A DNA stretch of 64,000 nt from Naegleria gruberi (Eukaryota), in assembly GCA_000004985.1 (NCBI GenBank), contig GG738905.1; one strand, given 5' to 3'. Numbering within the stretch: position 1 is the first letter of the stretch; every line of letters begins with the position of its first letter. The notes beneath the pieces were generated by a model. It made no database searches. It had not been told where the DNA came from and saw only the letters and a list, made by a program, of their open reading frames with translations. Positions 40,540-64,000 of this stretch are shown piece after piece. A program made the position numbers and the translations under genes.

Positions 40540-40795
40540 AAAGTCTTCATCTTCTGAATATGATTCAAAGAAAGTTGCCTAATTTTTGAGGGATGAGAAT
40601 TGATGGATTGAAAGCCTCCATCTCATTGAGAATGAGCATTGACAATAATAGTGGAATCATTCAATGTCGATTTGAAACTATTTCAAATAAATTTCGAGTT
40701 GGAATCTGCTACTTTTTTTAAGTGTTTGGTGATAAACGTTGGGTCAATTTGTTACTTTCCATTTTGAGGAGTCATGCAGATTTCTTGAATGAAAG
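40540..40795 (+). repeat. terminal repeat A1 of the DIRS-like element
   Basis: About 90% identical to 44976-45236. Both start aaagtcttcatcttctgaatatgattcaaagaaagttgcctaattt and end gatttcttgaatgaaag. Confidence 0.85.
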
Positions 40796-40796
40796 T

Positions 40797-40915
40797 TGAA
40801 GTGAGTACCCCACTCACTAAGGTTTATTGTAAACTACACACACCAATAAATATGAAAAATTTTTGTCTGAAAAAATTTCAACACAGCAAGATGTTAAAAG
40901 ACAAGATTTACGCTC
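40797..40915 (+). repeat. repeat B1
   Basis: ttgaagtgagtaccccactcactaaggtttattgtaaactacacacaccaataaatatgaaaaatttttgtctgaaaaaatttcaacacagcaagatgttaaaagacaagatttacgctc is identical to 44800-44921. Confidence 0.9.
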
Positions 40916-42034
40916 TTATTAAAGAACACTCCAGTGATGTTATGGCTAGTATGCCTCCAAACACCATCAAGATGGTATTGGATCTACTTGGCGAAAACCC
41001 TGAAGACAAAGAAAGATGGCTAGAAATTGTTGAAGACGCAGGTGGTGCGTTATTCAACAACTTCTCAACAAAAGCAGAGGCCCAGGAATACTTTACCAAA
41101 GGTATTAAGAAGTTAGCAAAGAGTGGTAAAGTTGCTTCCACTAGAAGTAAGACTACCTCTTTGCAAGAGGCAAGCACTCCAAGTAACATGAATAAGACTT
41201 CTTCTTCATCTCAAATGGCTACCCCAAAGGTTTCTAGCGTTAGTCAGGTTAGAGAGTTCGTCCAAAAGAGAAGGATTGAAGAAACAGACGACAAGGAGTG
41301 GAAGAGAAGAGGTGTTATTCTTGACCCAGCTGATTTCCTTGAAAAGCCAGCTACTTGGAATCTCCCAAGTAGACAACAATGGGAAGAGATGAACCGCCAA
41401 ATCAACATTTTAGTGGTCGGTAAACAGGTTGAAGAAAAGGTTAAGGAAACGTTTCCGCCATTGAGTACCAATAACCAAGCATTGAAAGCAGAGTACGACA
41501 CCTTGAAAGAGGTCGCAGGAAGCGTCTACGGTGCTGCATTGTTGAACAAGGATGAGTCAGTTGCAGACAAGTTGGAGGGTGCCATTGAATATATCAAGGA
41601 GAAAGCGGTACACCTCAAGCTCGTTTCCTTCGACAAGCATCTTGCGGAGAAGGTTCGTATCATTCGTTCAGATAAGACCTGGAGAGAACAGGCTGACCTT
41701 ATTAAGGTCGCCTCCAAGTTGATGAAGGTAGAAAGTGAAGTGATTAAGAATGGAAACTTGCCAGTCATCAATAATATGACTAAAGCTGTTGAAAAGGCAA
41801 GAGATACCTATCCTGTAGCTTCCCACTGTTTCAAATGCGGAGAAGTTGGACACTTGGCAAAGAATTGCAATAAATCCACTTCCAAATACGTCTCGGTAAG
41901 TACTATTTTTCGATCCTCCAGATGCGGCAGAGATACGGGAGAGGAAACAAGCTGTTCACTCCATTTCGAATGCTTGGAAGGAGTGGAAGAGAAGAGGAGC
42001 GAAACCTTCGATAATAAGGCTCCTGAAAGAGGGT

Positions 42035-43852
42035 GTGAAAGTGCTTCCTTCAACAGGGTTCAAAAGATCAGTGGAGACAGTAAATTCAGCCAAGTTCTCA
42101 ATAAGGGAACTACAGTGGTTGGAAAGGGAGATAAATTTGCTAAAGAAGATTGGTGCATTAGAAGCTTGTCAGAATGCGGAAGTAGTGGCCAAGTTCAGAT
42201 TGGTACCAAAGGGAGAACAGTACAGATTGATTGTAGACTTGAGACCCTTAAACAAATATTGCCTCATCCCCAAATTCAAGTACAACACATTGAAGAGATT
42301 CTTAGAGTTTATTCCAGAATCTGGAACCATGTTCCTATCATCATTCGATTTGAAGTCTGGGTACCACCAGCTAAAAGTCCACAAGGACTCAAGAAAATTT
42401 TTTGCTATCAACTATTTTGGACAATTATTACAGTTTACTGTGTTGCCCTTTGGCTGGAATGGATCACCATAGAACTTCACTTTGGTAATGAATCAAGCGG
42501 TAATTTTGATGGAATCACCACTCATGCGTCTTTCCAATTATTTGGACGATGTGCAAATAGTGAATGTAGTGGAAGAAACAATAGCCGTACAGAATGTAGA
42601 AATATGCAGGGAAGATGCAAACCAGCTTGGTTTAGTGTTAGAGAGAAGAAAGAGTGTAATGAAACCAATGACAGAATTAGTAGTGTTGGGGTCATGTGTG
42701 AATATTATAACGAAGACACTATCAATGACAGAGGCTACGATAGTGAAGATTACGAATATGATAAAATCAGTACTCACGCGGATTCATTTAGGCAAAACAG
42801 TGTCGGTAAGGAAGATGAGTTCGATAAGCGGGACAGTGATTGCTTATTTGGAATGTTTTATCCCAGCAAGGGTGATGCTTGCTCCCATATTCGCCTTAAT
42901 AGCAAAAACAGTAGTGAAGTACGGATGGAAAGCTTCGGTATTCGTAAGGGATGTCAGGGTCATTCACAACCTTCAATGGATTATTGCAAATATAAGGATG
43001 TGGAATGGAAAACACTTCCAGAGGCCATCATTGGTCTATTACTTCTGGACAGATGCATCAGATTGGGGTTGGGGAGCATATTTCGAGGAGAAGGACTTGA
43101 AGATAGGTGGTCAATGGTCGGAACAAGAAAGAAAACTTCATATCCATATAAGAGAAATGTTAGCGGTGTTAAGAGCTTTGATGGAATGGAAGCATTTGTT
43201 CGAAGAGAGAAAGATCATTATTTATGTGGACAATTGGATTATCTTACACAACATTTTAAAGGGATGGGCAAAAAGCCCACTTATGAGAAGGTTAATTATG
43301 AGCTTCTGGAGAATTATATTCAGCCACAATATAACTCTATTGTCTGTGGAATGGTTACCGTCGGAAGAGAATTATATGGCAGACGGGATCAGCAGGGGGA
43401 TAATGAACGATCCCACGGATTGGGAGATGACTATTCCAGCATTTCAAAGGATTCAGAAGGAACTTCTAGTGGAAATAGGATTCGACAGATTCGCTTCCCA
43501 CGTAAGCTTCAAAGTCAAGCCTTACATGGTAAGAGAAAGAAATTTCAGAGGAGAGAAAGCAGACGCCTTCTCTACATTATGGACAGAAGAGGTTGTAAAT
43601 TTGTGTTGCGTCCCATTCAACTTAATAGGAAGAGTATTGAAACATTGCGAAGAATCAAAAGCTATAATGGTGTTGATTCATCCAGTATGGAAGAGAAGGT
43701 TTTGGTGGCCAATTCTAGAAAAGTATCGTATAAGGAGTGTATCGATGAATGGAAAGGACTTCTTTACAAAGTCCAATACAGGTCACGTAGAACCTTGCAA
43801 GAAATCTTGGCTATTAGAGGCAAGTCTGATAGATTGTCGAACTCGGAACTAA
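42035..43852 (+). pseudogene. RT/RNase H ORF of the DIRS-like element, interrupted by one in-frame TAG (~42473)
   Basis: Both sub-ORFs are in the same frame. The stop falls between the LPFGWNGSP motif and the YLDD motif. Otherwise the frame is intact. Confidence 0.7.
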
Positions 43853-44772
43853 TTAGAATTGCCAAGGAGGTCATTAGCTCTCACAGATACAAAGAGAGCA
43901 CTGACAAGAACTACAGAAGATATTGGGTGCGCTTTATTAGATTTAACATTGAAAGAAAGGCTTGTTTTCCTCCTTCAGAAGATAATCTTATTGCTTTCCT
44001 GACGAACATGTTCCTTAAAACACCGTCAGGAAGCAACTGCAGTGCAGCATATGCTGCTATCATGGCATTTGCCAAGAAATTTAGTTTAGATCAGGGAATG
44101 CGAGGAGATAATATTCGAGAAGTTTTAAATGGAATGACTAATCTTTCAAGAGTGGCTAGTGAGAAGGAAAGAAATGCTTGGCAACTAGAATTTATTAGAA
44201 AGTGGGTGAGCATAGGTAGGAGAAGCGTGTCTGACAGAGAATTTGTATTATACACATCTATGATGATCATAGGTCTACGAACTATGTTGAGAGGAAGTGA
44301 ACTTGGTGAACTAAAGACCGAAGATGTTCAATTTCTTCGCTTGGAGAATGGTAAAATGGCAGTCAAATTGAAATGTAGAAGAGTTAAATCTAGTCAGGGT
44401 AGAATGGGTAGAATTATGTGTATAGAGAGTACAGGAAATGATTTGTGCCCAGTATCTTGGTTGAATAGGTGGATGGTGTATAGAGATCAAGGTGATTACT
44501 TATTTGGTAATAGTAAGGCTTTGACTACAATCGACATTTCGTGGATACTGAGATTTGTGGCGTCAGTTATTGGAGTAGATGGATGTTTCTCCTCTCATTC
44601 TTTAAGAATTGGAGGTGCTAATGAAGCAGCTCAAGCAGGTTTTTCTCTCGCTGCTATTCAAGCTTTAGGCAACTGGTCTTCAAATGCGGTTGACAAATAT
44701 TTCAGATCTGAGTTTTTCTATAGTAGAAACGTATCAAAAGAATTGGGTTTCTAGTAGGGGCTCATTGTTTTC

Positions 44773-49973: not shown

Positions 49974-50498
49974 TTAATGATTTTTTGGTAGTGTAACTGC
50001 CAATGTGATAATGACAATGAGGATGGACAGACAGACATTGAATGCCACCAATGACCAAAATGTTGATTTTGCCAATTGTCCATATTTTCTTGCTCCTCTC
50101 ACTTCATGACTTGAATATTTAAAGACAAACATGTATGGAATGCAAGCAAAGAAGGGTGTAAAGATGAAGAATACTAGAAATGAAATGACAGTAGCAATCA
50201 AAAAGGCATTCTTTGCCTTGTCAGTTTGATGTTTCTCATGAAACCAATTGTTGGTTCCAGCATTTGTGTAGGGATGTTCTTGTCTATTCACAAGAGGAGT
50301 TGAGGTTGTTTCAGCTGTTGTAGTATAAACCTGCTGTTGTTGCTGAGGAGGAATCAGATTTTGTTTCAAATTCTCATGGAATGGATGCGATGTATAATGA
50401 ATCGCTTGAGGAGGTGGAGGGATTTCTCCATTACTTGGATAGGCAGAATTACTGTACGAAGTAGAATTGACTGTTGCTTGGTAATTGGTTGGATTCAT
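49974..50498 (-). CDS. CD225/dispanin-like two-TM protein with Pro/Gln-rich N-terminus
   Basis: The first ATG is at MNPTNYQ; the table start is TTG. The C-terminal half NAFLIATVISFLVFFIFTPFFACIPYMFVFK..GARKYGQLAKSTFWSLVAFNVCLSILIVIITLAV fits the CD225 topology. Confidence 0.45.
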   Translation of the reverse strand: MNPTNYQATVNSTSYSNSAYPSNGEIPPPPQAIHYTSHPFHENLKQNLIPPQQQQQVYTTTAETTSTPLVNRQEHPYTNAGTNNWFHEKHQTDKAKNAFLIATVISFLVFFIFTPFFACIPYMFVFKYSSHEVRGARKYGQLAKSTFWSLVAFNVCLSILIVIITLAVTLPKNH

Positions 50499-50826: not shown

Positions 50827-51376
50827 TTAGTCTTGAATGGGTTGATAGGCATGTCCTTGAGAATCATAATATTCAGGAGGAGGAGAATCTTCATATGCTG
50901 GAGGTTGTGTAGTGGTGCTCAATTGACCACTTCGTGTTTTCTCAGGAATTATTCCAAAATCTTCAGCTAACAACTCAATTGTGAGTGTTCCCTTTTGTGC
51001 ATTGTGCAAATTCAAAGTCAATTGTTGAGCTATTCCTTTTTCCAAACTGTCCAATGACACTGATGCCTTGCCAATCACATCATTCACCAATCGATCATAA
51101 TCAAAAACTTCAAAATAAATAGTTTCTATCTCAGGATTAAAATTTGAAGGTAAATCCATGTGGAAAGTGGCATTCCAATCTGGATTGCAATTCTTCTTGA
51201 TGACTTCTGTTCGTAATTGAATGGTACCGAGTTGAATTTTGACAAATGGATCTTTAAACAATTAATGGAATGTTAAACAAGATAATTTGATGAGAAATAA
51301 ACTTACCAGAAGTGCCTCCTCGATCCTTTGCATCTAAATCTCGGCAGTTAATAACTGTTAATTTGAGTTTTGGCAT
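50827..51376 (-). CDS. C2-domain protein, member 1 of tandem array (2 exons)
   Basis: Exon 1 is 51376..51307 (MPKLKLTVINCRDLDAKDRGGTSG, 70 nt, donor tctg|gtaagt). Exon 2 is 51251..50827 (tttaaag|ATCCATTTGTC, DPFVKIQLG...). C2 signatures VFDYDRL..DVIGKA and LAEDFG. Pro-rich tail. Confidence 0.75.
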
Positions 51377-51451
51377 TTTTTTGATTGATATGACGCTTGA
51401 CTTTTGTGAAAAAGGATACATGTCGGACTAATAAGGTTTATAGTTCAACAT

Positions 51452-52294
51452 TTATTGATTATATTGTGGTGGATAACTTGGTGGTGGTGGTTGAGAATAA
51501 CCAATTGGTGGATACCCTTGAAAATTTTGATTTGGATATTGAGATTGATCTGAATATTGAGGTGGTGGTGGTTGACATTGAGATTGATCTGAATATTGGG
51601 GAGGAGGAGGTTGTGAATTGAATGAGTTATCATTTTGAGGAGGAGGTTGATTAGGAATTGGGTATTGAGGAGGTGATACAGATGATTGATTATTCGAATA
51701 GTATTGAGGTGGAGGAGGAGATGAATTGCTGCTATCGTATTGTGGAGGTGGAGGAGTGGGAGGTTGTGTGTTAAAATTATTAATATTCGAATGATTATAA
51801 TTCAATTGAGTGGCACTTCTGTTGTGAACAGATTGTTGTGTTGGCAGAGTTGGTGGTTTAATTTCTGGAATTATTCCAAAATCCTCAGCTAGTAACTCAA
51901 TGGTGAGTGTTCCTTTGTGTGCATTGTGTAAATTCAATGTCATTTGTTGAGCTATTCCTTTTTCCAAGTTGTCCAATCGAGCAGATGTCTTTCCAATCAA
52001 ATCATTTGATGAAAATCTATCATAATCATAAACATCAAAGTAAATACTTTCAAATTCTGGATCAAATTTTGCTGGCAAATCCAAATTAAAAACAGCATTC
52101 CAATCTGGGTTACAATTCTTCTTGACAATTTCAGTTTTAACTTGAAGAGTGCCAATTTTAATTTTGACAAATGGGTCTTTAAAGAGTCATGATGATTTGA
52201 TATTATGTCAACAATTTAACCTACCTGAAGTGCCACCCATATCTTTGGCATCTAAATCCCGAGCATGAATAACTGTGAGTTTGAGTTTTGGCAT
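51452..52294 (-). CDS. C2-domain protein, member 2 (2 exons) with PPPPQY/SDQSQ repeat tail
   Basis: Exon 1 is 52294..52225 (MPKLKLTVIHARDLDAKDMGGTSG, donor cag|gtaggt). 48-nt intron. Exon 2 is 52176..51452 (DPFVKIKIGTLQVKTEIVKKNCNPDWN...). Confidence 0.75.
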
Positions 52295-52409
52295 TTTTTT
52301 AAAGTTGACTTGGTTTGTGATTGATGTTTAGATTCCATTATTGAAATTACAATAAATTCATTGATAAGCATTAAATTGCTAGTTTAAATTACAAATTTAT
52401 AGTACACAA

Positions 52410-53490
52410 TTATTGGAATGGTTGTGGAGGATATCCCATTTGAGGTGGGTAACCCATTTGAGGTGGGTAACCCATTTGAGGTTGTTGAGGGTAACCTTGC
52501 ATTGGCTGTTGTGGATAGCCTTGCATTGGTTGTTGAGGATAACCTTGCATTGGTGGTTGTTGTGGATAACCTTGTTGCATTTGAGGGTAACCTTGCATTG
52601 GTGGTTGTTGTGGATATTGTTGATAACCCATTTGAGGTTGTTGTTGGGGATAACCTTGCATTGGTTGTTGTTGAGGGTAGCCCATTGGTTGTTGAGGATA
52701 TCCATAACCTTGCACTCCCTGTGGTTGATAACCCATTGGTTGTTGTTGTTGTTGTTGTGGATAACCATAACCTTGAACTGGTGGACCTTGATTGAGTGGT
52801 TGTGATTGAGTAACTGATTGAGTTGGCATGGCTTGTCCAAAATCTTCAGCCAACAATTCCACAGTCAAAGTACCCAACTTGGAATATTGCAATTTGAGAT
52901 CGACACGTTGTGGTTGTCCCTTATATAAAGTTCCCAAAGCAACTGTTGCCTTACCAATAATATCATTTCCTCCAAAACGATCATAATCATAAACTTCAAA
53001 GACAGCACTTTCACTGGCTGGATTAACAGAAGGAGGCAAATCAAAGAACAAGGTTGTGTTCCATGTTGGATTGCAATTTTTGCTGATGTGATCAGTCTTT
53101 CTTTGAACGGAACCAATTGTTACTCTAACATATGGATCTAAATAGTATTAATTAATTAATATATAATGATGATGATAATGAATGATTATTAATATATATA
53201 TGAATAATATTTGTTAACCAATCACAAAATCATTGTTAATGTACAAAACAATATTAAATATATTAAAATCGATTGTACATTGTAGTTGAATAACACAAAT
53301 AATATAAGAAATATTTCATTGTTATAAGAAATTCATCATCATGGATGTAACATCACCAAAATTCATCATCATCATCACATGTAAAATTAAATCATCATCA
53401 AATTCGCATCATCAACCTACCAGAAGTACCACCAACATCCTTTCCTTCCAAATTTCTAGCAGAAATAACAGTAATCTTGAGTTTGCCCAT
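52410..53490 (-). CDS. C2-domain protein, member 3 (2 exons) with QGYPQQP repeat tail
   Basis: Exon 1 is 53490..53421 ([24 protein letters not shown], donor tctg|gtaggtt). ~283-nt AT-rich intron. Exon 2 is 53137..52410 ([27 protein letters not shown]...). Confidence 0.75.
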
Positions 53491-53708
53491 TCTTTGTGTG
53501 TCTATTTTTTGCTAAAGTTTCCATTCCGTGTTGCTTGTTTGAGAAACTCATCGCGTTTCATGTGTTTTATAAATAAGAATGGATCGCTCATGTTCATGTG
53601 TGTATTTTTACCGCCAAAAAAAACTACAATATGAACTTTGTTTTATTCCTTACCTCTGGGGTTGATGATGGGAATGTAAAATTATAATTTAATATAACAG
53701 TTAGTTTA

Positions 53709-54080
53709 TTAAGTTTGACTTGGATGAGGAGAACCTCTCAAGTGAGGAAGAATAGTATGATGTTGGGAATGATGAGGTTTGAAATGAGAAATAATTGGTC
53801 TGATTATATGATGAGAACCAAATACTTTGAATGGTGGTTGGACGGTATCACCCGATTGTTGTGGTGTAGGAATGGAAATTTGTGGCAATTGTTCTTGTTG
53901 GACGGTATCACCTGATTGTTGAGGGGTTGGAATGGAAACTTGTGGTAATTGTTCTTGTTGGACAGTATCGCCTGATTGTTGTGGAGTTGGAATGGAAATT
54001 TGTGGAAGTTGGCAATCAACTAAACAATTGGCAATAATGAAGCATGAAATGAATAGCAAGAGAATGAGAAATTTAGTCAT
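53709..54080 (-). CDS. small secreted protein with three tandem 20-aa repeats (QLPQxSIPTPQQSGDTVQQE) and His-rich C-terminus
   Basis: Signal peptide MTKFLILLLFISCFIIANC. Three near-perfect 60-nt DNA repeats at ~53835-54010. HH/HSQHH tail. Real ATG, single exon. Confidence 0.55.
   Translation of the reverse strand: MTKFLILLLFISCFIIANCLVDCQLPQISIPTPQQSGDTVQQEQLPQVSIPTPQQSGDTVQQEQLPQISIPTPQQSGDTVQPPFKVFGSHHIIRPIISHFKPHHSQHHTILPHLRGSPHPSQT
53835..54010. repeat. 3 x 60-bp tandem repeat (coding)
   Basis: ggtatcacc(c/t)gattgttg(t/a)gg(t/g)gt(a/t)ggaatggaaa(t/c)ttgtgg(c/t)aattgttcttgttggac is repeated with 2-4 substitutions per unit. Confidence 0.8.
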
Positions 54081-54383
54081 CTTTTTTGAAAATGTTACTA
54101 ATACCTTTTCATTCTTCCTGAATTTGAATCATTGTAATGCCAATGAACAATGTTAAATTGATATGTTTCGTTTAAGGATATTTACAGTTTAAAGATTTTT
54201 CCCAAGAGAGGATTTGGACACTTTGGTATTTTCAAGCAGATGGTAATGTTATATTTATATAGTAATTCATCTTTTGTGAAGTTAGAAATCCAACTGTTTG
54301 TGACCTCTGCGTGTTAGAAGAAGAAGGAGAACTATATAAGGAAGATAATGTATTATTTACACAATTTCAAGAAGAAATTCAAA

Positions 54384-55152
54384 TTATTGATATGGTGGAT
54401 ATCCTTGTTGAGGAGGATATTGTTGTGGTGGATATTGTTGTGGGTATCCTTGTTGTGGTGGAAAACCACCTTGTTGTGGGTATCCTTGTTCAGGAGGATA
54501 GCCATATCCTTGCATTGGAGGTTGTCCATAGTATGGTTGTTGTGGATATCCTTGTTGTGGTGGATACATTTGTTGTTGAGGGTAACCTTGTTGAGGGTAA
54601 CCTTGTTGAGGATATCCTTGTTGTTGTGGTGGAAAACCACCTTGTTGTGGATTAGTTGTGGTTTGAGTAGTAGTTGGTATGGCTTGTCCAAAATCTTCTG
54701 CCAACAATTCAACAGATAAGATTCCATTCCTTGAGTTGGCCAACCTTAAATCAACTTTTTGAGCGTGTCCTTTGTAAAGTGTTCCCAAAGCAATTGTTGC
54801 TCTTCCAATCAAGTCAGAAGATCCCAAACGATCATAATCAAAAACTTCAAAAGAAGCTGATTCTGTGGCTGGGTTGACACTTGGTGGCAAATCAAAGAAG
54901 AGAGAAGTATTCCAAGTTGGATTAGTAGTCTTGGTCAAGTGGTCAGTCTTGTGTTTAATTGTTCCAACAGAAACAACAACAAAAGGATCTATTCAGTGTT
55001 TAAAATATGATATTATTATTCAGTAGGATTATACAGATGTAAGTGTAATGATCAATGAAATTGTTTAAATAGTAACACCTACCTGATGTACCTCCAATAT
55101 CCTTTCCTTCTAAATCACGTGCAGAAATGATGGTTACTTTAAGTTTGCCCAT
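54384..55152 (-). CDS. C2-domain protein, member 4 (2 exons) with GYPQQ repeat tail
   Basis: Exon 1 is 55152..55083 ([24 protein letters not shown], donor catcag|gtaggtg). ~94-nt intron. Exon 2 is 54988..54384 ([27 protein letters not shown]...). Confidence 0.75.
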
Positions 55153-56874: not shown

Positions 56875-57564
56875 ATGACAATTTCTAAACCACCTCCATC
56901 TTCAGGTAATAATAATACCTCAACAGGAGCAGTAGAAGAATCCATTATTTTGCAACAAGCTTTATATTGTATAGAAGATAATTATGATGTGATGATGGCC
57001 TCACCAATCACGCTCCAACTCATCTCATCAATTTGTACCAATATTGTGACTCATCCGAACGAGGAAAAGTTTAGAAAGATTAAAATTGCCAATCCAAAGT
57101 TTAATGACTTTGTGATGGGCGTTGAAGGAGCTGTAAATTTATTAATGTTGTGTGGATTTGAAATTGATGATAGTGGAGAGTATATTATTCTCAAGAAGGA
57201 GAATTTTGTTGCTAGTGATTTGAAGGATTTGATTGCTGCCATTGATATCAAGACAAAGAATAATTTAACTACACCACAAAAGCCAAGTAGTAGTAGTTCA
57301 GCATCATCAAGTGTTGTGAAACCAACTGGTAGCAGCAGTTCAGTTTCCGATGCTGAAATAGAAGAGAGAAAGAAGAAAATGATGGAAGAAAAGAAAAAGA
57401 TTCAAGCTGAAAAGGACAAAATCAAGCAACAATTGCTTGCTGATAAGGAGGAAAGAAAGCATTTGCCAACTGGTGTTTGCTCTAGAAAGACTACCAAACC
57501 AAATAGCACTTCTAAAAAGACTTTTAGAGACATTGGCGTCGAGCTCAACAAGGGAGGAGGCTGA
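56875..57564 (+). CDS. PUB (PNGase/UBA-or-UBX) domain protein with S-rich linker and coiled-coil
   Basis: EEKFRKIKIANPKFNDFVMGVEGAVNLLMLCGFE matches the PUB-domain core. The KKKMMEEKKKIQAEKDKIKQQLLADKEERK segment is predicted coiled-coil. Confidence 0.5.
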   Translation: MTISKPPPSSGNNNTSTGAVEESIILQQALYCIEDNYDVMMASPITLQLISSICTNIVTHPNEEKFRKIKIANPKFNDFVMGVEGAVNLLMLCGFEIDDSGEYIILKKENFVASDLKDLIAAIDIKTKNNLTTPQKPSSSSSASSSVVKPTGSSSSVSDAEIEERKKKMMEEKKKIQAEKDKIKQQLLADKEERKHLPTGVCSRKTTKPNSTSKKTFRDIGVELNKGGG

Positions 57565-59162: not shown

Positions 59163-62100
59163 TTATATTCTTCTTTCACTTTGTGAGTAAGTGTTGGCAT
59201 TTCTGTTACCACCATAATTGTTTTGTTGGGAAGCATAAGGACTTTGTCTAGCTTGGGAGTATGGGCTAGTAGATGGTTGTTGATTGGATGGTTGTTGATT
59301 GTTGTTGGCAGTAGTGGAATAAGGTGATTGTTGGGCAGCAACTGTGGCAGCGTATGGACTTTGGGAGTAAGGTGATTGTTGAGGAGTTGAGGAAGCATAA
59401 GGTGATGGGGCATACGGACTTGTTTGTGGTGTAGAACTGTATGGAGACTTTTGATAATTATTGTTAGAATTGGACGAGTATGGACTATTTTGATAATTTG
59501 GAGGATTAGTTCTTTGACCTCTATCATATGAATCATCTCTTCTTTGATACCTACTATCACCACCATAATTTCTATTTTCATTTCTATTATCATTTCTATT
59601 ATCATTTCTATCAGAATAGTTGCGATTATTATTTCTATCACCAGAATAGTCTCTGTTGTATCTGTTGTTATTATCATTTCGGTTATTATCATAGTTTCTG
59701 TCAGAATTATTTCTATATGAATTATTTCTGTCATCTCTATTGTCATTTCTTTGGTAATCCCTGTTATCATTACGTTGATAATTCGATCTGTCACCTCTGT
59801 CATAATTTCTATTATCTCTGTTATCATTACGTTGATAGTTATTGTCTCCTCTATTTCTATTGTGGAAGTTGCCACTTCTTGAAAAGTCTACACGTTCTCT
59901 ATTGTTATAGTCGTGTCTGCCTCCACCTCCATTTCTTCTAAAGCTCAAATAGTTATTTCTTGGTTTACCATTCATAATATTATCAATCATTTCTCTTGAA
60001 GAGCAGAAAGTGACAGTCTTTTCACCATTTTGTCCAATTACAACTGGAACACTGCCTGAATCCAAAATTGTTGGCAACATTCTTGGAGGAAGTGTTACAT
60101 TTGGTAATAATTTGGCAATATACTTGCACTTGGATTTTTCAACCAATGGGAAATCAAAACAAGCACTAACAGCTGCAGTCTCTGCAACATCATCTAATAA
60201 ATCAGCTTTCCATGGTACCTTAACCATATCTGAAGGTGCCACCGAGAGTGGATCTTGTCTGAATGTACCTGCAACATCTTTTGATGCCTTATTAAAGTCA
60301 ACAAAGGAACTATCATCCAAATAGCATGACATGATTGAATTTTGGAGTGGATGTTCAAAGTGAACATATAGAGTAGTATTGCCTAGAGTATTTCTTTCCT
60401 TTTCCTCACTTGACAATTTAGGTTCAACAGTCTTGATGGCTGCTTGTAATTCTTCTTGATCAATGAAAGGAAGTAAGCATACACCCATCCATGTCTTGGT
60501 CTTTCCATTCAAATCAATCTTGAAATCTGTAGGGTAATAGTTAATAATTGGACTATCATCAGACAACATCAATTCACGATAACATGGAGGAAGAGCATGA
60601 GAACTTCTTGGAGGTAAAACACCCAACAATTGAGAGAAAGGTTTGTAAGGTTGACCTTTCTTAAAATTGAGACCAAGTTTTGAACTATCAACCATGGCCA
60701 TATCAGAAGCAAACGGAGCAAAATGGTAAGGATAGAACCAATCCCAAGAATCACAACCAGTATAATAATATCTAAATACCCAAACCAAACCTTCCAAATA
60801 TTTCAAAGAAACATCCCAATATTCATCAGTTCCAATATTAATATCCATCTTGTCCTTGTAATATCTTTCCTTCCATCCCTGAGAACCCAATTTCACTGTA
60901 TCAGGGAATTTTTCGGTATCAACATTCTTTGCTTCATCAAGTCTTAATTTCAAGCTATCTTGATATTGTTTGGAATCCATTTTAGAGATGGAAGATGAGG
61001 CAGCACCTTCAACCGAAGTTGTGGCTGTAGATGATGGTTCGGATGGTTGTTCCTCAGTTTCTTTTAACTTTTTTTCAACAGGAGCTTCCTCTTCCAATTC
61101 TTCATTTTCCTCCTCATCCTTTTTTCTTTTACCTAGGAATGATTTTTCAGGTGTATTTTCCAATCCTTGCTTTTTTCTGAAATCTTCATATGGATTTGTA
61201 ATGTGACCAAACTTTCCACGATGTTCTTTCAAAATTGGAACAATTTCAACACCTTCAGGTTTGTATGATTGATCCTTTCTTTCCTTTTGTTCACGCTTAC
61301 GTTGTTCTTGTTGTTTTTTAAAGTATTCTTCTCTCTTTTCTCTGACAGAGAATATTTTATCTTCATACTCTGAAACTTGTTTGAGCAGATACTGGACACG
61401 TGAAACATTGACATCACCATTTTCTGTAAGATAACCACCCATAACAGGTAAACTCTCCTTGTACAATGCAAGTAACAAGTCAATTGCACCTTCTCTAATA
61501 TCCAAAGAAGGTAAATGAGGTAAGAAATCGTTACCAACAAAGAAGCAAATAAAGACAAAATCATCCAAGCCTCTCTCAAATTCATATTGGAACGGAAGAC
61601 GATCAGTTTCTTGTAGCAATTCAATTTCCAAATATTCTCTCAGTACACTAATGTGTAAAATTTCTAATGGCTTGTATTCATAGGGATGGGCACCACTATT
61701 CTTCTTTTCCACATCATAACCCTTTCCTCCAGAATTTTTACCAAAATTGACTTTTTCTCTTAGATTGTAAAAGTATGGTTCGTGTGTTGCAAGAGCAAGC
61801 ATTGTAAGATCAGCATCCAATCCATGGATAACATGACTAGTATTTGGATTATATCCTTTCATTTCTCTTTGGGATCTAATAAAATCCATAATTTTATGTT
61901 CTCCTTCACCTGGAACATTTGCATCACTTAAAATAATTTTGACCTTTTTCCATCCTTCATCAGTGGTCAACTTCATGTGAATGAAATATCTTAGAGCTTT
62001 TCCTAGACGATACATGAAAGGAGTACCAGGAGTAATCACGTTTGAATCCCAATTATCTCCTGCAGGGTGAATTTCAAAATATTCATCCTCTTCCTCCTCC

Positions 62101-62771
62101 TGATTATTATTACTATCTTCAAATTCTTCATTGAGTGGCATATCATTATCTTCCATTAATAAACTAGCTAATTCCTTATTCTTGAAAGAAGAAAGTTTTT
62201 TCTTTTTCAAAATTCTAATTGGTTTCTCTGCAATAGAATCAATCTTTTCTGGTGGTGGTTCTAATCCACGACTAATTAATTCCTCACGTAAATCTCTTTC
62301 AACTTTCTTTTGATCTTCCATATCTTTTGCAGATTTATAACGACGAGCACGTTGTTGATTTTGTTTGGCTCTCGGAGCAGGACCATCAACAGCCATGAAT
62401 AAAACTTTTCTTGGTCTGATGGCTGCATAAATTCTCTCTACATATTCAAAGATCTTTTCATACATTTCTTCTTCTGTTTTAGGTGCTTCTTCATCTTCTG
62501 GATGGCAACAAGGGTGAATAATACCATTCATATCCAAATATAAATTATCAAATTCTTTTCCGTTAGGATTTGGTTTGGTTGTATCAATTCCTTGGGTTAC
62601 AATTCTAACAGTCTTCTTTTTAATGGTTGGTAATTGTCCATCAGCAACCTCAAAATCATCATAATTTGATGAAATTGTTGTTTTTTGTACTGTAGGTATT
62701 TCTTCAACACATTCCGATACAATATTTGGATATTTCTCTGTTAAATATCTATATAATCCTGGTACACCCAT
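59163..62771 (-). CDS. 5'-3' exoribonuclease, XRN family (Xrn2/Rat1-like size), with RG/DN-repeat and SPY-repeat C-terminal tail
   Basis: N-terminus MGVPGLYRYLTEKYPNIV. The conserved acidic active-site region has LYLDMNGIIHPC, FMAVDGPAPRAK, ILSDANVPGEGEHKIM and GLDADLTMLAL. A single 1202-aa ORF with real ATG. The tail has DNRDNRNYDRGDRSNYQRNDNR repeats followed by SPY(S/A) repeats. Confidence 0.85.
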   Translation of the reverse strand: MGVPGLYRYLTEKYPNIVSECVEEIPTVQKTTISSNYDDFEVADGQLPTIKKKTVRIVTQGIDTTKPNPNGKEFDNLYLDMNGIIHPCCHPEDEEAPKTEEEMYEKIFEYVERIYAAIRPRKVLFMAVDGPAPRAKQNQQRARRYKSAKDMEDQKKVERDLREELISRGLEPPPEKIDSIAEKPIRILKKKKLSSFKNKELASLLMEDNDMPLNEEFEDSNNNQEEEEDEYFEIHPAGDNWDSNVITPGTPFMYRLGKALRYFIHMKLTTDEGWKKVKIILSDANVPGEGEHKIMDFIRSQREMKGYNPNTSHVIHGLDADLTMLALATHEPYFYNLREKVNFGKNSGGKGYDVEKKNSGAHPYEYKPLEILHISVLREYLEIELLQETDRLPFQYEFERGLDDFVFICFFVGNDFLPHLPSLDIREGAIDLLLALYKESLPVMGGYLTENGDVNVSRVQYLLKQVSEYEDKIFSVREKREEYFKKQQEQRKREQKERKDQSYKPEGVEIVPILKEHRGKFGHITNPYEDFRKKQGLENTPEKSFLGKRKKDEEENEELEEEAPVEKKLKETEEQPSEPSSTATTSVEGAASSSISKMDSKQYQDSLKLRLDEAKNVDTEKFPDTVKLGSQGWKERYYKDKMDINIGTDEYWDVSLKYLEGLVWVFRYYYTGCDSWDWFYPYHFAPFASDMAMVDSSKLGLNFKKGQPYKPFSQLLGVLPPRSSHALPPCYRELMLSDDSPIINYYPTDFKIDLNGKTKTWMGVCLLPFIDQEELQAAIKTVEPKLSSEEKERNTLGNTTLYVHFEHPLQNSIMSCYLDDSSFVDFNKASKDVAGTFRQDPLSVAPSDMVKVPWKADLLDDVAETAAVSACFDFPLVEKSKCKYIAKLLPNVTLPPRMLPTILDSGSVPVVIGQNGEKTVTFCSSREMIDNIMNGKPRNNYLSFRRNGGGGRHDYNNRERVDFSRSGNFHNRNRGDNNYQRNDNRDNRNYDRGDRSNYQRNDNRDYQRNDNRDDRNNSYRNNSDRNYDNNRNDNNNRYNRDYSGDRNNNRNYSDRNDNRNDNRNENRNYGGDSRYQRRDDSYDRGQRTNPPNYQNSPYSSNSNNNYQKSPYSSTPQTSPYAPSPYASSTPQQSPYSQSPYAATVAAQQSPYSTTANNNQQPSNQQPSTSPYSQARQSPYASQQNNYGGNRNANTYSQSERRI

Positions 62772-62905: not shown

Positions 62906-64000
62906 TCAAATTCTTAGCATGTTGAAAACTTCCTTCTTGAGGGAATCTAATAGGATTGGTTTGTAAATGACAGAGTCAAAACCATGACCCACTAGAGTAT
63001 CAACACTTTCCCAAGTATTGGCTGTAATGGCTAAAATTGGTGTTTGTTTTTCAGTTTCGTTTTGTTTCTCTGCTTTACGAATCATTTCACATGCTTCCTT
63101 ACCTGAAAGAATTGGCATGAAACAATCCAACAAGATAATGTCGTACTTCTTTCGTTTGTACATGTTGAAACATTCCATTCCATCACAGGCTACATCAATA
63201 TCTTTAAATCCAATAACTCTTAGCATTTTGGTGAGGATTTTCCTATTAACTGCATTATCATCTACAACAAATATTGATTTCTTACTAATGTCAGGTCGAA
63301 TAGGACTGGATGGGTGGTGAGATTCTGATCTTTCACTTGTTGGAGAGGCTGTTTCTACTCCCAAGAATGTTGGCATGCTGCCTACTTCAACAATTGATTG
63401 TCTTGGGGTACAACTGGCTTTCTTGCAATGTGCATTGTGCGGTTTCTCTTTCAACACCAAATCAGCCAAATCAACAAACTTGATCGGTTTGGTCAGGTAT
63501 GAGAAAGTTTGATGATGTCTTGTTTCTCCTCTGAATATTGAAGGAATTATCATGCAATTCAATTGTTCCACAAATCTAGTGCCTTGAATTTGAGTACAGA
63601 ACGATTCTGGGCAGAAAATCATATATTTACAGGAATGATCTGCAACATGGAGAATATTTTCAGATTCTTGAACAAAATCTGCATGAGTTTCAAAATCTTG
63701 AATAAGCACAACTCGTTTGAACAAGTTCAAATAGGAAGACAGTACTTGTCTAAAAACTGGATCCTCATCAATAATGATAATACTCAAATCTTGTGATTGA
63801 TCTTCACTTAGAACGTCCAATAAATTTTCTGGATTCAAATTAATGTGAGTTGAGGAAGAAGAGCCTTCAGAATCTGTAACTTGCTCTTGTTTGTCCATTT
63901 CTTCGAGAGGGATATAGACGTTCATTGTTGTTCCTTCTCCTACTCTTGAGTTGACAATAATCTTTCCTTCCATTTTCTCAATAATTTGCTTAGTAATATT
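62906..64000 (-). CDS. hybrid sensor histidine kinase, C-terminal part (end of HATPase_c plus receiver domain); 5' portion beyond window end
   Basis: The frame stays open to the window edge. GKIIVNSRVGEGTTMNVYIPL is the G2 box end of an HK ATPase domain. The receiver domain is IFVVDDNAVNRKILTKMLRVIGFKDIDVACDGMECFNMYKRKKYDIILLDCFMPILSGKEACEMIRK (DD...D...K pattern). Confidence 0.75.
   Translation of the reverse strand, partial: NITKQIIEKMEGKIIVNSRVGEGTTMNVYIPLEEMDKQEQVTDSEGSSSSTHINLNPENLLDVLSEDQSQDLSIIIIDEDPVFRQVLSSYLNLFKRVVLIQDFETHADFVQESENILHVADHSCKYMIFCPESFCTQIQGTRFVEQLNCMIIPSIFRGETRHHQTFSYLTKPIKFVDLADLVLKEKPHNAHCKKASCTPRQSIVEVGSMPTFLGVETASPTSERSESHHPSSPIRPDISKKSIFVVDDNAVNRKILTKMLRVIGFKDIDVACDGMECFNMYKRKKYDIILLDCFMPILSGKEACEMIRKAEKQNETEKQTPILAITANTWESVDTLVGHGFDSVIYKPILLDSLKKEVFNMLRI

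What the first reader, a model, noticed from the sequence alone, without database searches (positions are those of the whole stretch)
50827..55152. Tandem array of four paralogous single-C2-domain genes with divergent Q/P/G/Y repeat tails and a conserved 70-nt first exon
All four genes lie on the minus strand. Each starts with a 70-nt exon encoding M(P/G)KLK(L/I/V)T(V/I)I..R(D/N)L(D/E)(A/G)KD.GGTSG and is split by a phase-1 intron (55, 48, ~283 and ~94 nt) immediately before DP(F/Y)V. The C2 cores are alike. The tails differ: PPPPQYSDQSQ repeats in member 2, QGYPQQP in member 3, GYPQQ in member 4, and a short Pro-rich tail in member 1. The architecture resembles plant SRC2-like or annexin-VII-like Pro/Gly/Tyr/Gln tails attached to a Ca2+/lipid-binding module. 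The array suggests recent duplication with repeat-tail turnover.
Basis: partly seen in the sequence, partly recalled or inferred. Interest (0 to 1): 0.6.

Follow-up and report, generated by a model that had tools for sequence, protein, structure and literature searches.

The report
Naegleria C2-domain gene cluster, repeat tails
Four neighbouring genes of the amoeba Naegleria gruberi each encode a calcium/lipid-binding C2 domain followed by a floppy Pro/Gln/Tyr-rich tail; this protein design is already known from Entamoeba and other amoebae, so the cluster is real but fairly ordinary.

Summary
The window is Naegleria gruberi. On the minus strand at 50827-55152 lie four two-exon genes. Each has a 70-nt first exon and a phase-1 GT..AG intron of 55, 48, 283 or 94 nt. 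Each encodes a full C2 domain (Pfam PF00168, E about 1e-25) with all five canonical Ca2+-ligand aspartates, followed by a low-complexity tail. An unrelated 123-aa gene interrupts the array between members 3 and 4.

Two claims need correction. The duplications are old, not recent: dS is 0.84-1.6, introns and flanks cannot be aligned, and the tree places the m3/m4 split before the N. gruberi/N. fowleri split. The spliced junction reads GGTS|DPF, not GGTSG.

Tail turnover is real. There are perfect DNA repeats inside the tails, and tail indels separate orthologues and strains.

The tails fall into two classes. Members 1 and 2 carry PPxY motifs. Members 3 and 4 carry (G)YP(P)QQ repeats.

The design "single C2 plus P/Q/Y/G tail" is widespread in amoeboid protists. 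It has been studied in Entamoeba (EhC2A, EhC2B) and solved structurally in Trichomonas. The likely function is a Ca2+-triggered membrane adaptor whose disordered tail recruits partners.

The genes are new members of a known kind, of low to moderate interest. One useful by-product: the public model of m1 is truncated, and no matching model of m3 was found.

The parts
51307..51376 (-). m1 exon 1 (70 nt, MPKLKLTVINCRDLDAKDRGGTS + first base of the Asp codon)
   Evidence: the public model XP_002671516.1 (110 aa) lacks this exon and the first half of exon 2
51252..51306 (-). m1 intron (55 nt, phase 1, GTAAGT...AAG)
50827..51251 (-). m1 exon 2: C2 core to 50953, then a 41-aa tail with two PPxY motifs (PPAY, PPEY), stop included
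52225..52294 (-). m2 exon 1 (70 nt)
   Evidence: the spliced product is identical to XP_002671517.1
52177..52224 (-). m2 intron (48 nt, phase 1, GTAGGT...AAG)
51452..52176 (-). m2 exon 2: C2 core to 51875, then a 140-aa P/Q/S/N-rich tail with seven PPxY motifs and a 39-nt repeat (1.9 copies)
   Evidence: in-frame tail indels in a second strain
53421..53490 (-). m3 exon 1 (70 nt)
   Evidence: no protein with this model was found in the public collection
53138..53420 (-). m3 intron (283 nt, phase 1, GTAGGT...TAG, 21% GC)
52410..53137 (-). m3 exon 2: C2 core to 52836, then a 141-aa uncharged Q/P/G/Y/M tail (12 GYP; 48-nt and perfect 18-nt tandem repeats)
55083..55152 (-). m4 exon 1 (70 nt)
   Evidence: the spliced product is identical to XP_002671520.1
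54989..55082 (-). m4 intron (94 nt, phase 1, GTAGGT...TAG)
54384..54988 (-). m4 exon 2: C2 core to 54687, then a 100-aa Q/P/Y/G tail (8 GYP; 15-nt repeat, 3.4 copies, 94% match)
   Evidence: AF2 model: residues 1-125 at pLDDT above 90, tail disordered
53709..54080 (-). Unrelated gene interrupting the array: 123 aa, hydrophobic N-terminus, three 20-aa repeats, His-rich C-terminus (= XP_002671519.1)

Best explanation
The locus holds four old, selectively maintained tandem paralogues of a small cytosolic protein type from Naegleria gruberi. Each protein has an N-terminal type-II C2 domain with a complete Ca2+-binding aspartate set, followed by an intrinsically disordered, multivalent Pro/Gln/Tyr-rich tail. 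The inferred mechanism is as follows. When cytosolic Ca2+ rises, the C2 loops bind Ca2+ and dock the protein on anionic phospholipid membranes. The tail then presents many short linear motifs at the membrane and recruits partners there. The array has split into two effector classes. m1 and m2 carry PPxY motifs, the classical ligand of class-I WW domains. m3 and m4 carry uncharged (G)YP(P)QQ repeats, like the annexin A7/A11 tails that bind EF-hand (PEF) proteins and like the Pro-rich tails of Entamoeba EhC2A/EhC2B. The tails evolve by slippage-type gain and loss of repeat units, while the C2 core is under purifying selection. Shown here: the gene structures, the C2 identity, conservation of the ligand residues, the predicted fold, the predicted tail disorder, the age of the duplications, purifying selection, and the tail indels. 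Inferred, not shown: Ca2+/lipid binding, and the identity of any partner.
For: All four proteins match Pfam C2 at E about 1e-25. The PDB sequence search matches synaptotagmin, ferlin and PKC C2 domains. D18, D24, D74, D76 and D82 are invariant in all six family members aligned; from my own knowledge of the rat Syt1 sequence, they sit in motifs KD.GGTSDP and DYDR...D that parallel Syt1 C2A LDMGGTSDP / YDFDRFSKHD, where the ligands are D172, D178, D230, D232 and D238. The AF2 model of m4 has eight strands at pLDDT 90-98 for residues 1-125, and a tail at pLDDT about 50 with no secondary structure. The best fold matches are Ca2+-binding type-II C2 domains, including Trichomonas C2 structures, at TMt 0.8-0.88. 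Core dN/dS is 0.16-0.35 and all ORFs are intact. In a second N. gruberi strain the covered part of the m2 core (from residue 32 on) is identical and only the tail has indels. Motif counts: PPxY 2 in m1 and 7 in m2, 0 in m3 and m4; GYP 12 in m3 and 8 in m4. The same architecture occurs in Acrasis, Acanthamoeba, Entamoeba, Physarum and Blastocystis. For Entamoeba EhC2A/EhC2B, experiments showed Ca2+ binding, phospholipid binding, recruitment of the EF-hand factor URE3-BP, and tail-dependent actin nucleation (PMC7197785, PMC2652455). Natural fusions C2-GYPPQQ-EF-hand exist (P0176, P0180), which links this tail type to EF-hand proteins.
Against: There is no biochemical or expression evidence for the Naegleria proteins. 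No strict ALG-2-binding ABM-1 motif PPYP(X)3-6YP occurs in any tail (motif definition from PMC12183772). Whether N. gruberi has suitable WW-domain or PEF partners could not be checked with these tools. Low-complexity tails may act non-specifically. Orthology to EhC2A/EhC2B is not established: the Entamoeba hits have E 1e-12 to 1e-17, and part of that score comes from tail composition.
Confidence: 0.6

Rival explanations
1. The tails are actin-assembly modules. As reported for Entamoeba EhC2B, the C2 domain docks on the membrane in response to Ca2+, and the Pro-rich tail binds G-actin (or profilin-actin) and nucleates filaments under the membrane. This would drive the pseudopods of the Naegleria amoeba stage.
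For: The architecture is the same as EhC2B: an N-terminal C2 of about 120 aa and a Pro-rich C-terminal tail whose removal abolishes actin binding and nucleation (PMC7197785). Entamoeba C2-tail proteins are retrieved by m4. Naegleria amoebae move by actin-based crawling (my own knowledge).
Against: Only m2 has poly-Pro runs of four or more residues (five runs) of the kind that profilin binds; m3 and m4 have none. Orthology with EhC2B is not established. Nothing was tested in Naegleria.
Confidence: 0.15
2. The Q/P/Y/G tails are prion-like low-complexity domains. Their main role would be self-association (phase separation or gel formation) on Ca2+-exposed membranes, for example to plug wounds or tether organelles as proposed for annexin A7/A11, rather than specific motif-partner binding.
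For: The m3 and m4 tails are uncharged (0-1 charged residues in 100-141 aa) and 83-86% Q+P+G+Y. They are predicted to be disordered. The annexin A7/A11 N-termini are similar low-complexity Pro/Gly-rich regions, and liquid-liquid phase separation is discussed for A11 (PMC12183772).
Against: The m1 tail is short (41 aa) and charged, and the m2 tail is built around discrete PPxY units, so this reading does not cover half of the array. No condensation has been tested.
Confidence: 0.15
3. Some or all copies are decaying duplicates or gene-prediction artefacts. In particular m1 (short tail, public model truncated) and m3 (283-nt intron, no public model found) would be suspect.
For: The public m1 model is a 110-aa fragment without a Pfam hit. 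The exact m3 protein is absent from the 15-billion-sequence collection. No transcript data were available.
Against: All four spliced ORFs are intact and have a complete C2 domain. dN/dS is 0.16-0.35. The same exon-1/intron junction occurs in the N. fowleri model (L001) and in a Naegleria sp. contig (L003). An intronless homologue (L002) encodes the predicted junction GGTSDPFV contiguously. m1 differs by only 2 aa in a second strain, at about 98% nucleotide identity across the region.
Confidence: 0.04

Closest known systems
Entamoeba histolytica EhC2A / EhC2B (single C2 domain plus proline-rich C-terminal tail)
   Same: Both are small cytosolic proteins with an N-terminal Ca2+-binding C2 of about 100-120 aa and a repetitive P/Q/G/Y-rich C-terminal tail. 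Both come from an amoeboid protist and occur as several paralogues per genome. Entamoeba C2-tail proteins are retrieved by m4 at E 1e-12 to 1e-17. Published functions are Ca2+-dependent phosphatidylserine binding, recruitment of the EF-hand factor URE3-BP, Rab21 binding, and tail-dependent actin nucleation (PMC7197785, PMC2652455).
   Different: The supergroup differs (Amoebozoa against Heterolobosea). Core identity is only about 35%. The Entamoeba homologues retrieved here have an N-terminal extension of about 30 aa. No PPxY-type tail class is reported for EhC2A/B. Orthology and shared partners are untested.
Trichomonas vaginalis 'XYPPX repeat family protein' C2 domain (PDB 9bkw/9bky; also 9zk0-9zk6)
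   Same: A protist C2 domain from a protein named for XYPPX repeats. It is hit by sequence (E 6.7e-10) and by fold (TMt 0.77-0.85, rmsd 1.9-3.1 A). Some entries have Ca2+ bound.
   Different: Identity is 21-26%. Only the C2 domain is solved. Pfam found no family, XYPPX included, in the three Naegleria tails scanned (m2, m3, m4).
Annexin A7 / A11 (and Dictyostelium annexin VII) N-terminal tails
   Same: A Ca2+/phospholipid-binding module joined to a long, uncharged Pro/Gly/Tyr/Gln low-complexity region. That region binds EF-hand proteins such as ALG-2 through YP-containing motifs (PMC12183772). That Dictyostelium annexin VII has GYPPQQ repeats is from my own knowledge.
   Different: The membrane-binding module here is a C2 beta-sandwich, not an annexin core; Pfam finds only C2. 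The tail is C-terminal, not N-terminal. The strict ABM-1 motif is absent.
Plant SRC2 and other small single-C2 proteins (CAR1/CAR4, OsGAP1)
   Same: All are small proteins with a single C2 domain. CAR4 and OsGAP1 are among the fold hits. SRC2 is a C2 protein (PMC12989361), and by my own recollection it has a Pro/Gly/Tyr-rich C-terminal region.
   Different: No SRC2 sequence was recovered or compared here. The CAR proteins have an extra helical insertion (target length about 160, TMt 0.61-0.68) and lack the repeat tail.
N. gruberi XP_002669212.1 (P0177), an unlinked fifth paralogue
   Same: It has a C2 core (Pfam E 3e-26) and a QGYPQQPM-type tail very like that of m3.
   Different: It lies on another scaffold. 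It has an extra C-terminal polybasic KFGKFGK segment. It falls outside the clade of the four array genes (98% bootstrap).

Membership tests
C2 domain superfamily (Pfam PF00168) | Significant match to the C2 profile above the curated threshold | tested here: met
   87-91 bits against a cutoff of 22, E 2e-25 to 5e-26, profile positions 1-2 to 98-101 of 104, for all four proteins
C2 domain superfamily (Pfam PF00168) | Eight-stranded beta-sandwich fold | tested here: met
   The AF2 model of m4 has eight strands (2-12, 25-31, 34-37, 48-57, 67-74, 82-90, 100-105, 113-122) at pLDDT 90-98. Foldseek gives probability 1.00 to many solved C2 domains. This is a prediction, not an experiment.
Ca2+-dependent (synaptotagmin/PKC-type) C2 domains | Five acidic Ca2+ ligands in loops 1 and 3 (Syt1 D172, D178, D230, D232, D238) | tested here: met
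   D18, D24, D74, D76 and D82 are invariant in m1-m4, N. fowleri and L002. The correspondence to Syt1 numbering rests on motif alignment from my own knowledge of the Syt1 sequence.
Ca2+-dependent (synaptotagmin/PKC-type) C2 domains | Measured Ca2+-dependent phospholipid binding | not testable with these tools
   Needs ITC and liposome co-sedimentation
EhC2A/EhC2B-like amoebal C2 plus Pro-rich-tail proteins | Single N-terminal C2 followed by a Pro-rich repetitive C-terminal tail and no other domain | tested here: met
   The architecture is described in PMC7197785 and PMC2652455.
EhC2A/EhC2B-like amoebal C2 plus Pro-rich-tail proteins | Orthology or specific sequence relationship to EhC2A/B | tested here: inconclusive
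   Entamoeba C2-tail proteins are retrieved (E 1e-12 to 1e-17, 34-37% identity). The NJ tree shows no resolved relationship, with 24-63% support on the deep nodes. EhC2A itself (XM_650207) was not compared.
EhC2A/EhC2B-like amoebal C2 plus Pro-rich-tail proteins | URE3-BP recruitment, Rab21 binding or actin nucleation | not testable with these tools
   Experimental properties only
Annexin VII/XI | Annexin repeat core | tested here: not met
   Pfam reports only C2 for all four proteins. Only the tail composition resembles annexin A7/A11.
ALG-2 (PEF) ligands | ABM-1 motif PPYP(X)3-6YP or ABM-2 PxPGF | tested here: not met
   No strict matches in any tail. The loose pattern YP(X)3-6YP occurs 7 times each in m3 and m4 (motif from PMC12183772).
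WW-domain (class I) ligands | PPxY motif(s) in a disordered region | tested here: met
   m1 has 2 (PPAY, PPEY) and m2 has 7; m3 and m4 have 0. Binding to a WW protein was not tested.
Plant SRC2 | Specific sequence relationship to SRC2 C2 domains | not tested
None appeared among the hits.
Pfam XYPPX repeat (PF02162) | Match to the XYPPX profile | tested here: not met
   No Pfam family at E up to 10 for the isolated tails of m2, m3 and m4. HMMER bias filters may suppress such matches.

The most novel reading that the evidence does not exclude
The array would be a modular toolkit of Ca2+-triggered membrane adaptors. One conserved Ca2+ sensor would have been duplicated and fitted with two different recruitment tails. 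The PPxY tails (m1/m2) would bring WW-domain HECT ubiquitin ligases to membranes exposed to Ca2+, supplying in trans the C2 targeting that animal Nedd4 carries in cis. The GYPQQ tails (m3/m4) would bring EF-hand/PEF proteins (ALG-2-like, and hence ESCRT) to the same membranes. On this reading the C2-GYPPQQ-EF-hand fusion proteins of other amoebae record the second interaction as a 'Rosetta stone'. This would give a simple, ancient, annexin-independent route for membrane-damage or Ca2+ signalling in Heterolobosea.
Probability: 0.15. Interest if true: 0.5.

Novelty: new member of a known kind. Interest (0 to 1): 0.22.

Why it matters
The practical gain is mainly in annotation and comparison. Two of the four genes are wrong or not found in the public N. 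gruberi protein set: m1 is truncated to a fragment without a domain, and no m3 model was found. The cluster also shows in one locus how a conserved Ca2+-sensor domain is kept under purifying selection while its disordered tail is remodelled by repeat gain and loss and has split into two motif classes (PPxY and GYPQQ). If those classes do recruit WW-domain and EF-hand partners respectively, the locus would be a compact system for studying how short-linear-motif tails diversify after duplication. It could also point to Ca2+-dependent membrane responses in Naegleria, including the pathogen N. fowleri, which keeps one orthologue. None of this changes current understanding of C2 proteins.

Tried and rejected
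(1) I searched the profile of the C2 cores against 1.84 billion representatives. The top 150 were dominated by multi-C2 proteins whose scores add up. Only the two family clusters (P0005, P0003) appeared as single-C2 hits, so the search said little about distribution.
(2) Exact look-ups of the N. gruberi proteins on contigs failed, so no genome-wide view of N. gruberi or N. fowleri was possible. Family size and the presence of WW/PEF partners remain unknown.
(3) I looked for the public m3 model by guessing alternative starts: a tail-only model from M127 and the mechanical 213-aa ORF. Neither is in the collection. The consecutive accession numbers EFC38773 and EFC38775 suggest that an entry exists with another structure, but this is inference.
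(4) I searched papers for the locus tags and accessions and found none.
(5) I tested whether m1 lost a longer tail through a premature stop. There is no Pro-rich reading frame and no similarity to the m2 tail downstream of the m1 stop.
(6) I tested for gene conversion or special conservation of exon 1. Its identity is no higher than that of the core.
(7) Synteny with N. fowleri: only the downstream membrane-protein gene and one gene about 27 kb away match. There is no second C2 copy within 10 kb either side in N. fowleri.
(8) Pfam scans of the isolated tails, XYPPX included, found nothing.
(9) No tRNA genes were found in the window.


Full report
ORGANISM AND OBSERVATION. The window is 34.5% GC. 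It comes from Naegleria gruberi. The spliced product of the fourth gene is identical to XP_002671520.1 (NAEGRDRAFT_73557), that of the second to XP_002671517.1 (NAEGRDRAFT_73554), and the small ORF between members 3 and 4 to XP_002671519.1. All three lie on a 290,827-bp scaffold.

On the minus strand, four ATG codons at 55152, 53490, 52294 and 51376 each open a 70-nt exon. Each exon is followed by a GT(A/G)GT donor and a (A/T)AG acceptor. Splicing yields in-frame CDSs encoding 224 (m4), 265 (m3), 264 (m2) and 164 (m1) residues. Because 70 = 23x3+1, the intron is phase 1.

tblastn with each core finds only these four loci in the 64 kb (E 1e-31 to 1e-63 between members). The array is not strictly uninterrupted. 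An unrelated, annotated 123-aa gene sits between m3 and m4 at 53709-54080.

IDENTITY OF THE DOMAIN. All four proteins match Pfam C2 (PF00168) with 87-91 bits, E about 1e-25, across almost the whole profile, and match nothing else. The PDB sequence search returns ferlin, synaptotagmin, PKC, Nedd4 and Munc13 C2 domains. It also returns a Trichomonas 'XYPPX repeat family protein' C2 (9bkw, E 6.7e-10).

In an alignment of the four cores with the N. fowleri and environmental homologues, D18, D24, D74, D76 and D82 are invariant. They sit in the motifs KD.GGTSDP and DYDR...D. From my own knowledge of the Syt1 sequence, these parallel synaptotagmin-1 C2A LDMGGTSDP / YDFDRFSKHD, where the Ca2+ ligands are D172, D178, D230, D232 and D238. 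The full ligand set is therefore present. The phase-1 intron splits the codon of the second ligand.

An AlphaFold2 model of m4 gives eight beta-strands with pLDDT 90-98 over residues 1-125. The tail has pLDDT about 50 and no secondary structure. Foldseek against the PDB ranks intersectin-2 C2, E-Syt C2A, Munc13-1 C2B, the Trichomonas C2 domains, CAR4, cPLA2 and PLC-delta first (TMt up to 0.88). Synaptotagmin-1 C2A superposes worse, at rmsd above 6 A. The chain also starts directly with the strand that aligns to Syt1 beta-2, and it ends with the invariant strand (T/S)(V/I)ELLAEDFG. Together these indicate a type-II (PLC-delta-like) topology. That assignment is my inference from the model.

THE TAILS. 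Downstream of the invariant DFG motif the proteins are unrelated low-complexity sequence.
- m1 has 41 residues with two PPxY motifs (PPAY, PPEY).
- m2 has 140 residues (27% P, 16% Q, 14% S, 12% N) with seven PPxY motifs and five poly-Pro runs.
- m3 has 141 residues (35% Q, 23% P, 13% G, 12% Y, 9% M, no charged residue) with twelve GYP.
- m4 has 100 residues (32% Q, 25% P, 15% Y, 14% G) with eight GYP.

The array therefore holds two tail classes, and they coincide with the two sequence pairs. The strict ALG-2-binding motif PPYP(X)3-6YP (definition in PMC12183772) is absent from every tail. The loose pattern YP(X)3-6YP occurs seven times each in m3 and m4. Pfam, XYPPX included, finds nothing in the isolated tails of m2, m3 and m4.

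AGE OF THE DUPLICATIONS. Core amino-acid identity is 77% (m1/m2), 71% (m3/m4) and 52-56% between the pairs. Nei-Gojobori dS is 0.84 (m1/m2), 1.16 (m3/m4) and 1.0-1.6 between the pairs, with dN/dS 0.16-0.35. For scale, m4 against its orthologue in another Naegleria species (contig L003, 90% identity) has dS 0.51. A second N. gruberi strain (L004) is about 98% identical at the DNA level.

Introns, 300 nt upstream and 200 nt downstream mostly align no better than shuffled sequence. Two short intron pairs and one downstream pair lie above the shuffled mean. Exon 1 (67-79% nt identity) is no better conserved than the rest of the core (59-80%).

A neighbour-joining tree with 100 bootstraps gives (m1,m2) 100%, (m4,L003) 100% and (m3, N. 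fowleri) 76%. The environmental homologue L002 groups with m3/m4/N. fowleri to the exclusion of m1/m2 at 98%. The duplications are therefore old. The m3/m4 split probably predates the N. gruberi/N. fowleri divergence, and the split between the m1/m2 and m3/m4 lineages is older still, unless m1/m2 evolved much faster. 'Recent duplication' is not supported.

INTRON HISTORY AND SUPPORT FOR THE GENE MODELS. The same 70-nt exon and phase-1 intron occur in the annotated N. fowleri gene FDP41_010191 (L001: exon 1 at 10001-10070, intron of 145 nt). They also occur in the Naegleria sp. contig L003 (exon 1 at 16-85, intron of 51 nt). The homologue on metagenome contig L002 has no intron and encodes GGTSDPFV contiguously, which is exactly the junction predicted by splicing. 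The intron thus predates the duplications, which points to DNA-level tandem duplication rather than retroposition. The splice models are also supported without transcript data. The N. fowleri model has a second, 80-nt intron at the core/tail boundary that N. gruberi lacks.

Comparison with public annotation gives three results. The m2 and m4 models are identical to mine. The public m1 model (XP_002671516.1, 110 aa) starts at an internal Met and has lost half of the C2 domain, so it has no Pfam hit. No protein matching my m3 model, or two alternative models, is in the collection.

TAIL TURNOVER.
- Inside the tails there are young DNA repeats: a perfect 18-nt repeat of 2.7 copies (GYPPQM) and a 48-nt repeat of 2.8 copies at 86% in m3; a 15-nt repeat of 3.4 copies at 94% in m4; and a 39-nt repeat of 1.9 copies at 89% in m2.
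- The m4 orthologue on L003 has a 90%-identical core, but its tail differs by indels of 6 and 11 residues.
- In the second N. gruberi strain the covered part of the m2 core (from residue 32 on) is identical, and the only protein differences are two in-frame indels in Pro runs of the tail.

LOCUS COMPARISON. In N. fowleri a single C2 gene of m3 type lies within 10 kb either side. Its downstream neighbour is homologous to the membrane-protein gene that follows m1 in N. gruberi (46% identity over 57 aa). A second conserved gene lies nearby. The locus is therefore orthologous. Given the tree, N. fowleri has most likely lost or relocated the other copies, but whole genomes could not be searched here.

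DISTRIBUTION AND CLOSEST KNOWN SYSTEMS. A search with full-length m4 recovers small proteins with one C2 domain and a (G)YPQQ-type tail from several lineages:
- N. gruberi, an unlinked fifth paralogue (XP_002669212.1);
- Acrasis kona;
- Acanthamoeba castellanii;
- Entamoeba histolytica, E. dispar and E. invadens;
- Physarum;
- Dictyostelium, where the repeats are N-terminal;
- Blastocystis.

The design has been characterised experimentally in Entamoeba. [quoted passage not shown] It anchors the EF-hand transcription factor URE3-BP at the plasma membrane and is found on phagosomes (PMC2652455, PMC7197785). EhC2B binds Ca2+, phosphatidylserine and Rab21 through its C2 domain and nucleates actin through its Pro-rich tail (PMC7197785).

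Annexin A7/A11 carry comparable Pro/Gly-rich low-complexity N-termini that bind the EF-hand proteins ALG-2 and S100A6 (PMC12183772). Some relatives are natural fusions of C2, a GYPPQQ linker and an EF-hand pair: P0176 (C2 at 2-104, EF-hands at 277-346) and P0180. I read these fusions as indirect evidence that this tail type works together with EF-hand proteins.

MECHANISM. The best-supported reading is a Ca2+-triggered membrane adaptor. The C2 domain docks on anionic membranes when Ca2+ rises. The disordered, multivalent tail then concentrates partners there. Candidates are WW-domain proteins for the PPxY tails of m1/m2, and EF-hand/PEF proteins or the actin machinery for the GYPQQ tails of m3/m4.

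Shown here are the domain identity, the ligand residues, the predicted fold, the predicted disorder, purifying selection and the motif content. Ca2+/lipid binding and every partner are inferred. The rivals are an EhC2B-like actin nucleator, a self-associating low-complexity 'condensate' role, and non-functional copies. The last is disfavoured by the intact ORFs, the low dN/dS and the conservation between strains.

VERDICT. The finding is real and was accurately described. It consists of new, partly mis-annotated members of an already known protein design, in an old rather than a recent tandem cluster. Interest is low to moderate. The most interesting point is the split into two tail classes within one array, together with the direct evidence that the tails are remodelled while the core stays fixed.

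Noticed in passing
window 40789-44754 (+): A 1321-aa uninterrupted ORF with a CCHC zinc knuckle (aa 346-361) and a C-terminal tyrosine-recombinase domain (Phage_integrase E 2.8e-9, aa 1157-1304, plus the SAM-like N-domain at aa 1024-1097). It looks like a tyrosine-recombinase mobile element (DIRS/Ngaro/Crypton-like) about 6 kb from the C2 array. No reverse-transcriptase domain was detected by Pfam even at E up to 10.
   Followed up: partly
window 53709-54080 (-): A 123-aa gene inside the array (= XP_002671519.1). It has a hydrophobic, signal-peptide-like N-terminus, three copies of a 20-aa unit (LPQ(I/V)SIPTPQQSGDTVQQEQ; 60-nt period, 2.8 copies, 89% match) and a His-rich C-terminus. It has no Pfam family.
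   Followed up: partly
window 49974-50498 (-); L001 11354-11860: A 174-aa protein (NAEGRDRAFT_73552) with a Pro/Gln-rich N-terminus and a hydrophobic, membrane-spanning-like C-terminal half. It has only a weak CD225 hit (E 0.012). Its N. fowleri homologue also lies immediately downstream of the C2 gene, so the gene order is conserved.
   Followed up: partly
window 50827-51376 (m1) and 52410-53490 (m3): Problems with the public annotation. The m1 model XP_002671516.1 is a 110-aa fragment that starts at an internal Met and lacks half of the C2 domain. No public protein matching the two-exon m3 model was found.
   Followed up: yes
L001 10001-10858 (N. fowleri FDP41_010191): The N. fowleri orthologue has a second, 80-nt intron (10517-10596) exactly at the C2-core/tail boundary, which N. 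gruberi lacks. Its annotated C-terminus also runs 17 aa past the position where the N. gruberi m4 protein ends (...YPPYQ*); the sequence there looks like a single extra base. This could be a real extension or a sequencing error.
   Followed up: partly
L002 736-1335 (ENA ERZ27315067 contig, 39.8% GC): An intronless homologue (64-71% identity to m3, m4 and N. fowleri) from an unidentified environmental eukaryote. The Naegleria phase-1 intron was therefore either gained in the Naegleria lineage or lost here.
   Followed up: partly
proteins P0176, P0179, P0180, P0186 (metagenome / EukProt transcriptomes): Natural fusions of a C2 domain, a GYPPQQ-repeat linker and a C-terminal EF-hand pair. They are a possible 'Rosetta stone' linking C2-tail proteins to EF-hand partners. 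Domain positions were confirmed with Pfam for P0176 and P0180 only.
   Followed up: partly
protein P0177 = XP_002669212.1 (other N. gruberi scaffold): A fifth N. gruberi C2 protein with a GYPQQ tail. It has an additional C-terminal polybasic segment (KKLKKMGKKMGKFGKFGKIGKIGKKFGKFGKKWF), which could be a second membrane-binding element.
   Followed up: no
window 51377-51451 and 52295-52409: The intergenic spacers inside the array are very short: 75 nt between the m2 stop and the m1 ATG, and 115 nt between the m3 stop and the m2 ATG. Promoter and terminator signals must be very compact or overlap the neighbouring gene.
   Followed up: no
window 56875-57564 (+), 59163-62771 (-), 62906-63973 (-): The neighbouring genes are a PUB-domain protein, an XRN-family 5'-3' exoribonuclease (XRN_N E 2e-92, XRN_M E 2e-132) and a protein with a C-terminal response-regulator receiver domain.
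   Followed up: no
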